DNA of 64,000 nucleotides from an uncultured delta proteobacterium (GTDB lineage Bacteria > Desulfobacterota > Desulfomonilia > Desulfomonilales > Desulfomonilaceae): positions 352,001 to 416,000 of the forward strand of contig CAWBKB010000007.1 of assembly GCA_963789265.1 (NCBI GenBank), in the 5' to 3' direction. The position numbers were made by a program, and so were the translations under genes. Within the stretch, counting starts at the first letter, position 1, and every line of letters starts with the position of its first letter. Shown in pieces: positions 61,263 to 63,885 of the stretch. Below the pieces are notes generated by a model. The model was not told the origin of the DNA. It searched no databases and worked only from the letters and a program-made list of their open reading frames with translations.

Positions 61263-61304
61263 ATGAGCCGGCTTCAGCGGCCCCGTATATGACCAGGGGG
61301 GCGT

Positions 61305-61389
61305 GTCATTGCGAGGAGCGGTGCGACGAAGCAATCTCCTGTACCGCTTCCGTTACCTTGTGAGATTGCTTCGCTGCGCTCGCAATCAC
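61305..61389. repeat. GTCATTGCGAG..GCAATCTC inverted doublet downstream of GIY-YIG gene 1
   Basis: Arms at 61305-61338 and 61362-61389. Confidence 0.9.
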
Positions 61390-61400
61390 AGGGTGATGTC

Positions 61401-61688
61401 CTACAAGTATTCATATAGATCCCGCCATTCGGGATTCATTGCTTCGATGAGGTCGATTTTTTTCTGGCGAGAGCCTGCCTTTATCTGTTTCTCACGGGCA
61501 ATGGCTGCGTGCACGTCATCTGTGACCTCATAGAACACCAGCTTGGAAACGTTGTACCGGTGAGTAAAACCCGGTACCAGCTTCTCTCGGTGCTGCCAGA
61601 CGCGTCTCCTGAGGTCGCGGGACACCCCCATGTACAGAACCGTGTTACTGCGATTGGTGAGGATGTTGACGTGGTATTGTCGATACAC
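61401..61688 (-). CDS. Small stand-alone GIY-YIG nuclease (Ssn-like) 1
   Basis: VLYMGV..DL.RRV.QH......GFT.RY.V.KLV.YE......AI.REKQIK...R..K..LI...NP.W.DL. Confidence 0.9.
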   Translation of the reverse strand: MYRQYHVNILTNRSNTVLYMGVSRDLRRRVWQHREKLVPGFTHRYNVSKLVFYEVTDDVHAAIAREKQIKAGSRQKKIDLIEAMNPEWRDLYEYL

Positions 61689-61703
61689 GTTCTATAACTT
61701 TCC

Positions 61704-61829
61704 GAGATTGCTTCGCTTCGCTCGCAATGACAGGTGCCGATAATGTCATTGCGAGGAGTGAAACGACGAAGCAATCTCCTGTACCGATGTCACAACTTTC
61801 CGAGATTGCTTCGCTTCGCTCGCAATGAC
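61704..61829. repeat. Three GTCATTGCGAG-family arms upstream of GIY-YIG gene 1
   Basis: Arms at 61704-61731, 61745-61778, 61802-61829. Confidence 0.9.
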
Positions 61830-61937
61830 AGTAGGAGCAACCGGTGCGGAGGCCTGTCCTACCGCCGCGATGGTAGCGCCGGCGTCCCTGCCGGCGGATG
61901 ATGGGATGTGGCGGCACCCGAACGGCGGCCTTTGCCC

Positions 61938-62901: not shown

Positions 62902-63053
62902 GTCATTCTCGCGCACGCGGGAATCCAGGCATTGAATCTCAGTGGGACCGGCATCTTGCCGGTCGTCGTCATTCCCGCGTACGCGGGAATCCAGACTGGA
63001 CCCCGGATCTAGTCCGGGGTGACGACGTCATCCTCGCGCACTCGAGAATCCAG
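62902..63053 (+). repeat. dRS3-like repeats downstream of GIY-YIG gene 2
   Basis: GTCATTCYCGCGYACGCGGGAATCCAG-type units at 62902, 62968 and a more degenerate one at 63027, plus an inverted CTGGACCCCGG..CCGGGGTGAC unit. Confidence 0.9.
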
Positions 63054-63054
63054 G

Positions 63055-63348
63055 CTATAACGTAATGACTTCGTACAGGTCTTTCCAATCCGGGTTCCTT
63101 TGCTCTATCAGATCCAACTTCCAAGCCCTTCTCCATTTCTTGATCTGTTTTTCCCTTGCTATTGCACTTTCGGCGGTATCATGAACTTCAAAATAGACGA
63201 GCCTGTTCACACCATACTTCATTGTAAAGCCTTCTACTAACTTTTGCTTGTGCTGCCAGGTCCTCTGAATCAAATTGGATGTCACCCCTGTATACAAGGT
63301 TCCGTTACGTTGACTCGCCAAGATGTAGACATGAAATTGCTTACTCAC
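63055..63348 (-). CDS. Small stand-alone GIY-YIG nuclease (SsnA-like) 2
   Basis: HVYILASQRNGTLYTGVTSNL..R..QHK.....GFT.KY.V..LVYFE.....AI.REKQIKKW.R.WK..LIE..NP.W.DL; GAGG RBS before GTG. Confidence 0.93.
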   Translation of the reverse strand: MSKQFHVYILASQRNGTLYTGVTSNLIQRTWQHKQKLVEGFTMKYGVNRLVYFEVHDTAESAIAREKQIKKWRRAWKLDLIEQRNPDWKDLYEVITL

Positions 63349-63390
63349 TTCAACCTCATCTGGACCCCGGATCAGGTCCGGGGTGACGGC

Positions 63391-63749
63391 GTCATTCTCG
63401 CGTACGCGAGAATCCAGACGAGGAGGGATCGTGCTAGAACCCAGGGGTCCTGAGTCGTCATTCTCGCGCACGCGGGAATCCAGACTCTGAATGACAGGCA
63501 GGATGCCTATCCCACTAAAGTCGTCATTCCCGCGGCACGCGGGAATCCAGACGATCTTGGTTGCCTCATCGGTACGCAGATCACTCGTCGTCATTCCCGC
63601 GCACGCGGGAATCCAGAACCGGCTGCCTCGATCATACTGACCGTGAAACCGGAGGTCGTCATTCCCGCGCACGCGGGAATCCAGGCCTAATGCTGTTACA
63701 CCTGGCACGACGTGAGGGAGTTGTCATTCTCGCGCACGCGGGAATCCAC
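63391..63749 (+). repeat. Regular repeat-spacer array (6 repeats, 5 unique spacers), CRISPR-like/NIME-like
   Basis: Repeats start at 63391, 63457, 63523, 63590, 63658, 63723; spacers 39, 39, 39, 41, 38 nt. Confidence 0.9.
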
Positions 63750-63885
63750 GCTGGACCCCGGATCTAGTCCGGGGTGACGGCATCATTACCTCGCACTCGG
63801 GAATCCATTGTGGGGGCACCTCTCCCGGGTGCCCGCAAGACGGCAGACACTATCCCGCGTCGCGCGGGACTGCCCCTACTCGTCC

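What the first reader, a model, noticed from the sequence alone, without database searches (positions are those of the whole stretch)
62902..63808. Cas-less repeat-spacer array wrapped around a 97-aa GIY-YIG nuclease
Seen: a 27-bp hairpin repeat GTCATTCYCGCGYACGCGRGAATCCAG recurs in direct orientation at 63391, 63457, 63523, 63590, 63658 and 63723 (period 66, 66, 67, 68, 65), separated by five unrelated spacers of 38-41 nt. The same 66-bp period and 39-nt spacer recur on the other side of the gene (62902/62968). Inverted CTGGACCCCGG..CCGGGGTGAC units occur on both sides of the gene and at the array end. No cas gene is in the window. Known: the core ATTCCC-N8-GGGAAT is the Neisseria dRS3 consensus, and the Neisseria GIY-YIG protein SsnA cuts such repeats in ssDNA; Neisseria RS spacers vary widely in length. 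Inference: the tight spacer length suggests a ruler-like cassette acquisition/shuffling mechanism, or a processed guide-like RNA, tied to this minimal nuclease.
Basis: partly seen in the sequence, partly recalled or inferred. Interest (0 to 1): 0.9.

Follow-up and report, generated by a model that had tools for sequence, protein, structure and literature searches.

The report
CRISPR-like spacers in nuclease hairpin repeats
A small DNA-cutting enzyme gene sits among its own known hairpin repeats, but here the repeats have picked up short unrelated inserts with the same spacing as this bacterium's real CRISPR array, which looks like a new CRISPR-type array being born in the wrong place.

Summary
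The 27-nt repeat matches the published NTS motif letter for letter. The 97-aa gene is an Ssn-family GIY-YIG nuclease, 64-65% identical to the only Neisseria gonorrhoeae homolog. Gene plus flanking hairpins is therefore a known system (Chenal 2025), and earlier notes of this scan filed it as known on other DNA.

Three things are not ordinary.

1. The spacers are mutually unrelated, whereas most regular NTS arrays in other genomes are tandem copies.
2. All 8 direct NTS neighbours in this genome, apart from fixed composites, lie 65-68 nt apart. That is the period of the genome's own type I-C CRISPR array, which lies on another contig with intact cas4-cas1-cas2.
3. One spacer is a 36/36 copy of a distant, non-repeat chromosomal site. 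A doublet elsewhere is a clean "filled site": 32-nt insert plus 34-nt target duplication, against two empty-site paralogs.

Best reading (about 0.45): ectopic spacer integration by the resident Cas1-Cas2 into NTS hairpins, a natural "neo-CRISPR". In the order, the three genomes whose NTS spacers are not mere copies all have a resident array of matching period (I-C here, I-E in two).

Against this reading:
- The one protospacer has no PAM.
- The duplication boundaries vary.
- A broad survey gives no clear support, because NTS doublets peak at 60-62 nt even where no Cas1 was found.

The rival is a Cas-independent capture linked to NTS/Ssn.

The parts
62902..62928 (+). NTS hairpin repeat, left copy a
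62929..62967 (+). Interval S0 (39 nt between cores). Holds a copy of the multicopy hairpin module C (GTGGGACCGGCATCTTGCCGGTC), so it is not a unique spacer.
62968..62994 (+). NTS hairpin repeat, left copy b
62996..63024 (+). Module B hairpin (CTGGACCCCGGATCTAGTCCGGGGTGAC), part of an 88-nt NTS-B-NTS' composite
   Evidence: family D2
63027..63053 (+). Degenerate NTS copy. It ends 1 nt before the stop codon of the nuclease gene.
63055..63348 (-). ssn gene: 97-aa single-domain GIY-YIG nuclease
   Evidence: Pfam PF01541, E 6.6e-17. 64-65% identity over 89-92% of its length to a single ORF in each of two N. gonorrhoeae chromosomes.
63361..63389 (+). Module B hairpin, 13 nt upstream of the ssn start codon
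63388..63751 (+). Array of six NTS units, about 32 nt each (GTC + 27-mer + AC; units start at 63388, 63454, 63520, 63587, 63655, 63720). Five spacers lie between them: S1 63420-63453 (34), S2 63486-63519 (34, a module C copy), S3 63553-63586 (34), S4 63619-63654 (36), S5 63687-63719 (33).
   Evidence: The boundaries are my inference from conservation between units.
63620..63655 (+). 36 nt identical (36/36) to genome contig C5:828810-828845 on the opposite strand. That site is single-copy, non-repeat intergenic DNA.
63751..63779 (+). Module B hairpin at the array end
63782..63808 (+). Degenerate terminal NTS copy

Best explanation
Two layers. (1) Shown: the gene is an Ssn-family single-domain GIY-YIG nuclease surrounded by its cognate NTS/SRM hairpin repeats. 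This system was published in 2025; the nuclease binds the hairpin in single-stranded DNA and cuts just upstream of it. (2) Inferred: the CRISPR-like part of the locus was built by the genome's own type I-C adaptation proteins (Cas1-Cas2, with Cas4) acting at the wrong address. The NTS unit here is about 32 nt, starts GTCG and ends AC like the I-C repeat, and carries a strong palindrome. I propose it was used as a surrogate repeat. Each event would insert a 33-36-nt fragment and duplicate the roughly 32-nt unit by staggered cuts and gap filling, giving the same 65-68-nt period as the true array. Repeated events near the ssn gene, where NTS copies are densest, would have grown a six-repeat array. 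Single events would have produced the two doublets elsewhere (C4:156237-156329 and C7:124588-124679). The array is probably not used for interference, because its repeat lacks the I-C 3' handle. That would also explain why a perfect self-matching spacer is tolerated.
For: Identity of the system:
- The repeat fits the NTS motif.
- The protein is 64-65% identical to the sole N. gonorrhoeae homolog.
- The genome holds 124 copies with at most 4 mismatches and 194 with a looser motif.

Insertion with target duplication:
- The C4 doublet sits inside a roughly 190-nt repeated element.
- Paralogs of that element at C3:371101 and C1:758183 lack exactly 66 nt, which equals a 34-nt duplicated stretch plus a 32-nt unique insert.
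- The two copies share a private stem variant.

Fragment capture:
- Window 63620-63655 equals C5:828810-828845, 36/36.
- The C5 site lies in native intergenic DNA that partly aligns with relatives, so it is the source.

Geometry:
- The I-C array has a 32-nt repeat and periods 65 (x8), 66 (x11), 67 (x5) and 68 (x2) in the 26 intervals.
- NTS direct neighbours are at 65, 65, 66, 66, 66, 68, plus 66+67 across the copy with a 1-nt insertion.
- The only other direct distances under 200 nt are 59 (hairpin B between the copies) and a fixed 133/134-nt composite.
- A genome-wide scan for exact 20-mers repeated at 55-80 nt found the CRISPR array, two tandem-repeat regions on C1 and C3, four isolated pairs at 60, 60, 61 and 80 nt, and the three NTS events.

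Machinery:
- cas5, cas7, cas3, cas4, cas1 and cas2 are open frames next to the 27-repeat array.

Kin:
- Among 70 genomes of the order, direct NTS doublets occur in 4.
- In three of them the spacers are not mere copies of each other, and each has a resident array of matching period. G000 has I-C at 65-68. G095 has an NTS triplet at 61/61 and an I-E array at 61-62. G117 has a doublet at 62 and an I-E array at 60-62.
- G006, in the same genus, has 69 NTS copies, no Cas1 found and no doublet.

Precedent:
- Off-target integration that spawns neo-CRISPR arrays was shown in E. coli by Nivala et al. 2018. I saw it only as cited.
Against: - The single known protospacer has no TTC on either side (flanks GTG and GGC). 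TTC is the type I-C motif as I recall it, not from a call. A system with cas4 should mostly select a motif.
- The duplicated stretch differs between events in length and position: at most 34 nt starting 7 nt upstream of the 27-mer (C4), at most 33 nt (C7), and at most 30 nt for the pair around S4, which leaves 3 unexplained letters beside the 36-nt match (40-type inspection, 66).
- Repeats within the array differ by 1-3 letters, unlike the 27 identical I-C repeats.
- The NTS unit shares only about 19 of 32 positions with the I-C repeat (by eye). Sequences upstream of the events do not resemble the I-C leader (by eye).
- Broad survey: in 32 other genomes with clean NTS doublets, Cas1 was found in only 14. 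Of 13 with a cas1-linked array, 5 match within 1 nt and 8 do not.
- Doublet periods peak at 60-62 (17 of 35) whether or not I-E is present: I-E/I-F-type Cas1 in 5 of 15 genomes with such doublets against 3 of 17 without.
- Of the broad-survey genomes with doublets at 65-69 nt, four had no Cas1 found and none had a confirmed I-C array.
- Some 'spacers' are copies of other repeat modules (S0 and S2 here; spacer 2 of G095).
- No spacer matched phage, plasmid, viral-contig or metagenome collections.
Confidence: 0.45

Rival explanations
1. Cas-independent capture linked to NTS/Ssn. An unknown process tied to the hairpin inserts short fragments next to an NTS and duplicates the NTS, with its own lineage-specific ruler. 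One possibility is a nick by the Ssn nuclease a few bases upstream of the hairpin on one strand, plus a second cut beyond the hairpin. The match to the I-C period in this genome would then be coincidence.
For: - NTS direct doublets with non-duplicated inserts are common across phyla.
- Their periods peak at 60-62 (17 of 35 clean doublets).
- 18 of 32 such genomes had no Cas1 match, and 8 of 13 with known arrays do not match in period.
- The left edge of the duplicated unit (3-4 nt upstream of the 27-mer) lies close to where the published enzyme cuts, a few nt upstream of the NTS (passages).
- The largest array here, and the doublet in G117, lie directly beside ssn genes.
- The captured fragment has no PAM.
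Against: - No enzyme activity known for Ssn joins DNA or sets a 33-36-nt insert length. The paper reports ssDNA cleavage only.
- Within one bacterial family with near-identical NTS, the period changes from 61-62 to 65-68 in step with the resident CRISPR type, which an intrinsic ruler does not explain.
- G006 has 69 NTS copies and no doublets.
- The two doublets in this genome are not next to any GIY-YIG gene.
- Many of the Cas1-negative genomes are incomplete metagenome bins, and doublets there were not shown to be insertion-duplication events.
Confidence: 0.27
2. NIME/BIME-like mosaic. The locus is a pile-up of independently spreading small hairpin modules (NTS, B, C) and leftover local sequence, shuffled by recombination between repeats. 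The regular spacing would arise because the modules have similar sizes.
For: - S0 and S2 are module C copies, and B fills two further intervals at a 59-nt period.
- The NTS-plus-inverted-C adjacency also occurs in three genomes of the genus.
- The genome is saturated with composite elements built from the same modules.
- Repeats in the array differ from each other as independent copies would.
Against: - It cannot explain a 36/36 copy of single-copy DNA that has no NTS at the source.
- It cannot explain the exact 66-nt filled-versus-empty difference with target duplication.
- It cannot explain why all 8 direct neighbour distances fall in a 4-nt window.
- S1, S3 and S5 have no second copy in the genome.
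Confidence: 0.15
3. A working orphan CRISPR array. The NTS array is transcribed and processed, and its RNAs guide the type I-C (or another) effector.
For: CRISPR-like dimensions that match the resident system. Spacers are unrelated to each other.
Against: - The repeat lacks the conserved I-C 3' handle GTGGATTGAAAC seen in all 27 true repeats.
- The repeats are not identical.
- No leader-like or promoter-like site was found, and there is no CRISPR-DR or other Rfam match.
- There is a perfect self-match.
- Two spacers are genomic repeat modules with more than 100 targets in the chromosome.
- The same hairpin occurs 124-194 times as singletons.
Confidence: 0.04

Closest known systems
Ssn nucleases with NTS/SRM hairpin repeats (SsnA of Neisseria meningitidis; Chenal et al., Nat Commun 2025, PMC11893778; abstract, sections 6, 7 and 10 and searched passages read)
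   Same: Single-domain GIY-YIG protein of about 100 aa. The repeat fits the NTS motif exactly. Oriented repeats flank the gene on both sides (the paper reports 42% of homologs flanked on both sides). The genome holds more than a hundred copies. A second paralog in the window has its own hairpin variant, in line with the paired enzyme/sequence specificities the paper describes.
   Different: The paper's main text has 0 occurrences of 'spacer' and does not describe regular arrays with unrelated spacers, captured fragments or target duplications.
Neo-CRISPR arrays from off-target Cas1-Cas2 integration (Nivala, Shipman and Church 2018, Nat Microbiol; seen only as cited in bioRxiv 10.1101/148544 and PMC7054753; the paper itself is not held)
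   Same: A spacer-length insert flanked by a duplicated repeat-length target outside the CRISPR locus. The geometry equals that of the resident array. Events can stack into a small array.
   Different: That work used E. coli type I-E with over-produced Cas1-Cas2, and evidence from natural genomes was called circumstantial. Here it would be a natural type I-C case, aimed at a multicopy hairpin repeat of a selfish nuclease, supported by empty-site paralogs, and without a PAM on the one traceable spacer.
Canonical type I-C CRISPR array of the same genome (contig C1:319934-321673)
   Same: A 32-nt unit that starts GTCG and ends AC. Spacers of 33-36 nt. Period of 65-68.
   Different: The repeat sequence differs (about 19 of 32 positions shared, by eye). 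The NTS units are not identical to each other. There are no adjacent cas genes or leader. One spacer is self-derived and two are repeat modules.
Neisseria intergenic mosaic elements and E. coli BIMEs
   Same: Arrays of a short palindromic repeat alternating with other short modules in intergenic DNA.
   Different: In those arrays the intervening units are themselves repeat families of variable length. Here four of six intervals are single-copy, of near-constant length, and one is a traceable copy of unrelated DNA.

Membership tests
Ssn nuclease / NTS-SRM system | Single-domain GIY-YIG protein of about 100 aa, homologous to SsnA (CDD cd10448) | tested here: met
   97 aa; Pfam GIY-YIG E 6.6e-17 over residues 5-78. 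64-65% identity, E 1e-31, to the only matching ORF in two N. gonorrhoeae chromosomes. The cd10448 assignment itself is not testable with these libraries, and NCBIfam gave no hit.
Ssn nuclease / NTS-SRM system | Oriented hairpin repeat that fits CGTCATTCCCGCGMAVGCGGGAATCYRG | tested here: met
   The copies at 63590 and 63658, with the preceding C, read CGTCATTCCCGCGCACGCGGGAATCCAG, which fits the motif quoted.
Ssn nuclease / NTS-SRM system | Repeats in the flanks of the gene on both sides, and many copies genome-wide | tested here: met
   Three copies on the 3' side and seven on the 5' side of the gene. 124 copies genome-wide against 0 for shuffles.
Ssn nuclease / NTS-SRM system | Site-specific cleavage of single-stranded DNA next to the hairpin | not testable with these tools
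   Needs purified protein and oligonucleotides.
Canonical CRISPR array | Near-identical repeats with unique spacers of similar length | tested here: inconclusive
   Spacers of 33-36 nt are unrelated to each other. The repeats differ at 1-3 positions, and two spacers are repeat modules.
Canonical CRISPR array | Repeat is that of a cas system in the genome, with a leader and/or adjacent cas genes | tested here: not met
   The only cas1 locus is on contig C1 with a different repeat. There is no cas gene in the ORFs of the last 4 kb of the window, and no promoter-like site.
Canonical CRISPR array | Spacers match mobile elements | tested here: not met
   No spacer hit in phages or plasmids, in viral contigs for S1, S3 and S5, or in metagenome contigs for S1 and the C7 insert. 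Power is low: a true I-C spacer also gave 0 hits. The one traceable spacer is self-derived.
Neo-CRISPR (ectopic Cas1-Cas2 integration) | Complete adaptation genes in the same genome | tested here: met
   cas4, cas1 and cas2 are open frames next to a 27-repeat array. Their activity was not tested.
Neo-CRISPR (ectopic Cas1-Cas2 integration) | Spacer-length insert with duplication of a repeat-length target, shown against an empty site | tested here: met
   Exactly 66 extra nt, equal to a 34-nt duplication plus a 32-nt insert, against two empty paralogs. The C7 doublet has a duplication of at most 33 nt and an insert of at least 32 nt.
Neo-CRISPR (ectopic Cas1-Cas2 integration) | Geometry equals that of the resident array | tested here: met
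   Periods are 65-68 for both. The duplicated length is 30-34 rather than a fixed 32.
Neo-CRISPR (ectopic Cas1-Cas2 integration) | Protospacers carry the system's PAM | tested here: not met
   The single protospacer has flanks GTG and GGC, with no TTC. The PAM identity is recalled, not from a call.
Neo-CRISPR (ectopic Cas1-Cas2 integration) | Across genomes, ectopic period follows the resident CRISPR type | tested here: inconclusive
   3 of 3 in the order. In the broad survey, 5 of 13 genomes with arrays match, and 18 of 32 have no Cas1 found.

The most novel reading that the evidence does not exclude
The NTS/Ssn system has its own Cas-independent way of capturing spacer-length DNA between duplicated hairpins. 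The nuclease, which cuts single-stranded DNA just upstream of each hairpin, would then process a single-stranded copy of the array into unit-length 'hairpin plus spacer' DNA pieces. That would be a DNA-based analogue of CRISPR RNA biogenesis. The widespread 60-62-nt NTS doublets in genomes where no Cas1 was found would be its footprint.
Probability: 0.08. Interest if true: 0.95.

Novelty: new variant of a known kind. Interest (0 to 1): 0.62.

Why it matters
How new CRISPR arrays arise is an open question. Off-target integration has been shown in engineered E. coli, with only circumstantial traces in nature (as cited). This locus offers a natural case that can be tested directly. It has a traceable self-derived spacer, empty-site paralogs, and a defined surrogate repeat that is the multicopy hairpin of a selfish nuclease. 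If the reading holds, REP-like hairpin families are seeding grounds for new arrays. They are also a hidden cost of adaptation, because of self-derived spacers and expanding repeat clusters. If it fails, the same data point to an unknown capture mechanism tied to Ssn hairpins, which would be more surprising. Either way the locus warns annotators: automated CRISPR finders will call such arrays 'orphan CRISPRs'.

Tried and rejected
- Tandem duplication as the origin of the array: rejected, because the spacers are no more alike than shuffles. In other genomes, 80 of 92 adjacent spacer pairs in regular NTS arrays are at least 60% identical, which marks them as tandem copies.
- 'NTS copies inserted at intervals into one ancestral sequence': rejected, because the flanks of the S4 source do not continue into S3 or S5.
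- The C5 site as recipient rather than source: rejected, because the 36 nt straddle DNA that aligns with relatives and DNA that does not.
- Orthologous locus for spacer turnover: G001 keeps yggU-yggT and the downstream gene, but holds a different small-gene cassette with other repeats at this spot. No orthologous array was available.
- Protospacer searches: phages and plasmids gave only repeat hits. Viral contigs for S1, S3 and S5, and for one true I-C spacer as control, gave 0 hits each. Metagenome contigs for S1 and the C7 insert gave 0 hits. The 70 genomes of the order, searched with the whole array and both doublet inserts, gave only the S4 self-match and module hits.
- Sequencing runs: no RNA holder is listed.
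- Reads: contigs of two soil runs carry the same array in pieces, with two 1-nt length differences. None spans the array and no joint skips a unit. A 223-nt contig of a third run has conserved flanks but a different sequence at the S5 position; it may be a related strain or a paralogous element.
- First kin scan for doublets: it used too strict a core and missed G095, G117 and G074. It was redone.
- First reading of the cross-genome test as 0 of 8 matches: revised after the weak Cas1 hits proved to be I-E/I-F loci with arrays of period 60-61.
- Rfam: no hit.
- The Nivala 2018 paper could not be read.
Full report
**What is there.**
The repeat is GTCATTCYCGCGYACGCGRGAATCCAG. It lies at 62902 and 62968 to the left of a small gene. 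To the right it lies at 63391, 63457, 63523 (with one extra G), 63590, 63658 and 63723. Degenerate copies lie at 63027 and 63782. A second hairpin, CTGGACCCCGG..CCGGGGTGAC (module B), occurs three times.

The gene is 63055-63348 on the minus strand and encodes 97 aa. It is a GIY-YIG domain protein (Pfam E 6.6e-17). Its stop codon begins one base after a repeat, and its start codon lies 13 bases from a B hairpin. The repeat is not a chance feature: the genome holds 124 copies with at most 4 mismatches, and three shuffled 27-mers gave none.

**What is already known.**
Chenal et al. 2025 (PMC11893778; abstract, sections 6, 7, 10 and searched passages read) describe the Ssn family of single-domain GIY-YIG nucleases. 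These enzymes bind an oriented hairpin repeat in single-stranded DNA and cut just upstream of it. In Neisseria the repeat is the NTS, CGTCATTCCCGCGMAVGCGGGAATCYRG.
- In that paper, 71% of ssnA homologs have such motifs in their flanks and 42% have them on both sides.
- The copies at 63590 and 63658 fit the motif letter for letter.
- The protein is 64-65% identical (E 1e-31) to the single matching ORF in each of two N. gonorrhoeae chromosomes that happen to be in the plasmid collection.

So the 'minimal nuclease wrapped in hairpins' is a new member of a published system. Earlier notes of this scan reached the same verdict for similar loci in other genomes. A second paralog at 61401-61688 (-) is framed by its own hairpin variant.

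**What is not ordinary: the spacers.**
I scanned one genome per species for two NTS cores 28-58 nt apart.
- Regular multi-copy arrays are common there, but they are tandem copies: 80 of 92 adjacent spacer pairs are at least 60% identical.
- Here the six intervals are no more alike than shuffled sequences (mean identity 0.51 against 0.52).
- Two of them (62929-62967 and 63484-63522) contain a copy of another multicopy hairpin, module C.
- Three have no second copy in the genome.
- One, 63620-63655, is a 36/36 copy of C5:828810-828845 on another contig.

That C5 site has no NTS near it. It lies in ordinary intergenic DNA. Its first half aligns with three relatives and its second half lies in a stretch that only this genome has, so it is the source and the array holds the copy.

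**An insertion with target duplication.**
Outside the window the genome has only two other direct NTS pairs, at C4:156237-156329 (66 nt apart) and C7:124588-124679 (65 nt).
- The C4 pair sits in a roughly 190-nt repeated composite element.
- Two paralogs of that element, at C3:371101 and C1:758183, align with it end to end except for exactly 66 extra bases in the C4 copy.
- Those 66 bases are a 34-nt stretch present twice (part of the upstream hairpin plus the NTS, including a private stem variant) and a 32-nt unique insert.

This is the footprint of staggered cuts about 32-34 nt apart, ligation of a short fragment, and gap repair.

**The ruler.**
With a looser motif the genome has 194 NTS-like sites. 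Same-strand neighbours closer than 200 nt are at 65 (x2), 66 (x3) and 68 nt, plus the 66+67 pair across the copy with the extra G. The other distances are 59 (hairpin B in between) and a fixed 133/134-nt composite.

The window has no cas gene, but the genome does.
- Contig C1 carries a WYL regulator, cas5, two unassigned ORFs, cas7, cas3, cas4, cas1 and cas2.
- Next to them lies an array of 27 identical 32-nt repeats, GTCGCCCCTCACGCAGGGGCGTGGATTGAAAC. I recall this repeat type as I-C.
- Its spacers are 33-36 nt, and its periods are 65 (x8), 66 (x11), 67 (x5) and 68 (x2).

The two period distributions coincide. Conservation between the NTS units of the window extends 3 nt upstream and 2 nt downstream of the 27-mer. 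That gives a 32-nt unit. It starts GTCG in 5 of 8 units and ends AC in 4 of 8, like the I-C repeat. With that unit the spacers are 34, 34, 34, 36 and 33 nt.

**Best explanation.**
The simplest mechanism that inserts 33-36-nt fragments of unrelated DNA and duplicates about 32 nt of target is Cas1-Cas2 integration. I therefore read the array and the two doublets as ectopic integrations by the resident type I-C adaptation module into NTS hairpins. Off-target integration that founds 'neo-CRISPR' arrays was shown in E. coli by Nivala et al. 2018. I could not read that paper and rely on how bioRxiv 10.1101/148544 and PMC7054753 describe it. The former notes that evidence from natural genomes was only circumstantial.

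**Test across genomes.**
- *Broad survey.* For 32 genomes with clean NTS doublets, Cas1 was found in 14.
- My first look at arrays beside the strong Cas1 hits gave 0 of 8 period matches. The weak Cas1 hits then proved to be I-E/I-F loci with arrays of period 61 or 60.
- The re-scored result is 5 of 13 genomes matching within 1 nt (G068, G061, G072, G060, G051). Eight do not match (G052, G070, G042, G059, G066, G055, G048, G065).
- Doublet periods peak at 60-62 (17 of 35). That peak is not clearly tied to I-E/I-F-type Cas1, which was found in 5 of 15 genomes with such doublets and 3 of 17 without.
- The broad survey therefore neither supports nor excludes the idea. It shows that NTS pairs also arise, or persist, without a matching CRISPR system. 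Many of these genomes are incomplete bins, and I did not show that their doublets are insertion-duplication events.
- *Within the order of the window's genome.* This test is cleaner. Among 70 genomes, direct doublets occur in four.
- G074 has a tandem array with identical spacers. In the other three the spacers are not copies of each other, and each has a resident array of the same period.
- These three are this genome (I-C, 65-68), G095 (NTS triplet 61/61; I-E array 61 x39 and 62 x5) and G117 (doublet 62 beside an ssn gene; I-E array 61 x35).
- I-E-type Cas1 is present in about 19 of 70 genomes, and Cas1 of the window's type (E at most 1e-100) in 13 of 70 (my count). Three matches by chance would have a probability of roughly 0.014. 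This ignores relatedness.
- In the same genus, G006 has as many NTS copies (69), no Cas1 found and no doublet.

**Evidence against.**
- The one traceable protospacer has no TTC on either side. The PAM identity is recalled.
- The duplicated stretch is not constant: at most 34, 33 and 30 nt in the three exact events, with the C4 event shifted 4 nt upstream. Around S4, three letters between the repeat and the 36-nt match are unexplained.
- The NTS units differ from each other by 1-3 letters, whereas the true repeats are identical.
- The sequences upstream of the events do not resemble the I-C leader (by eye).
- Some 'spacers' are repeat modules with no full-length source.
- No spacer matched phage, plasmid, viral-contig or metagenome collections. 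The same was true of a true I-C spacer used as control, so this has little weight.

**Rivals.**
- A Cas-independent capture tied to the hairpin or the nuclease would explain the doublets in genomes without Cas1, the missing PAM, and the position of the largest array beside ssn. It needs an unknown joining activity and ruler. It does not explain why the period switches with CRISPR type inside one family.
- A mosaic of independently spreading modules explains S0, S2 and B. It does not explain the 36-nt copy, the 66-nt filled site or the 4-nt-wide distance distribution.
- A working orphan CRISPR array is unlikely. The I-C handle is missing and the repeats are not identical. No promoter-like site or Rfam match was found. 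There is a perfect self-match, and two spacers have more than a hundred chromosomal targets.

**Other data.**
- Contigs of two soil runs hold the same array in pieces, with two single-base length differences. One of them removes the extra G of the third repeat.
- A 223-nt contig of a third run keeps both flanking repeats and the downstream hairpins but has a different sequence at the S5 position. This could be spacer turnover in a related strain, or a paralogous element. I cannot tell which.
- No RNA run was listed.

**Verdict.**
The Ssn/NTS identification is right, and that part is already known. 'Cas-less' is wrong at genome level. The ruler-like acquisition is real. I attribute it, with moderate confidence (about 0.45), to ectopic integration by the resident type I-C adaptation module. 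I class the locus as a new variant of a known kind. The decisive experiments are simple integration assays and cas1/ssn knockouts.

Noticed in passing
window 61304-61831: A second Ssn-like GIY-YIG gene (61401-61688, minus strand, 95 aa, Pfam E 5e-12) is framed by two 88-nt inverted-pair elements built from a different hairpin variant (TGTCATTGCGAGGAG...GCAATC). So two nuclease paralogs with distinct cognate repeats lie 1.4 kb apart.
   Followed up: partly
genome contig C1:319878-319903 (outside the window): Just past the last type I-C repeat lies one lone type I-E-like repeat. It is identical to the repeat of the I-E array in family member G117 and looks like the remnant of a lost I-E array. 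Solo I-C-like repeats also lie at C1:1048189 and C1:318533.
   Followed up: partly
loci L011-L132 (other genomes): Across many phyla, direct NTS doublets with non-duplicated inserts peak sharply at a 60-62-nt period (17 of 35 clean doublets). This is the type I-E/I-F geometry, yet many of these genomes show no Cas1. The NTS stem-loop also resembles the I-E repeat hairpin (by eye; the E. coli repeat is recalled). Unexplained.
   Followed up: partly
L179 (G001:C49, orthologous site): In a genus relative, the same gap between yggT and the downstream gene holds a different small gene framed by CACCGCAGAG-type repeats instead of ssn plus NTS. The site is therefore a hotspot for small repeat-armed gene cassettes.
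   Followed up: no
genome-wide, e.g. C1:211587, C1:217202, C7:367684, C7:395107: About 25 near-identical copies of a longer element end exactly at an NTS variant (GTCATTCCGGCGGAGGCCGGAATCCAG). A second family of about 15 copies does the same. They look like insertion sequences that carry or target the hairpin.
   Followed up: no
window 63657-63875, run X3: A 223-nt metagenome contig keeps the flanking repeats and downstream hairpins but has about 20 substitutions and 6 indels, most of them within the S5 spacer. That amounts to a different spacer of similar length at that position.
   Followed up: partly
genome contig C1:321127-321290: Spacers 7 and 8 of the true I-C array are identical. Spacers 1 and 11 are similar to each other and look like a ribosome-binding site plus start codon, perhaps from two related targets.
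   Followed up: no
genome contig C3:1415-2400: Two adjoining tandem-repeat blocks with 65-69-nt units, unrelated to NTS or CRISPR, were picked up by the period scan.
   Followed up: no
L209/L235 (G095:C90:7834-7977): In the NTS triplet of a family member, the second spacer is itself a multicopy module of about 34 nt (more than 15 copies at 85-94% identity). This parallels the module C spacers of the window.
   Followed up: partly
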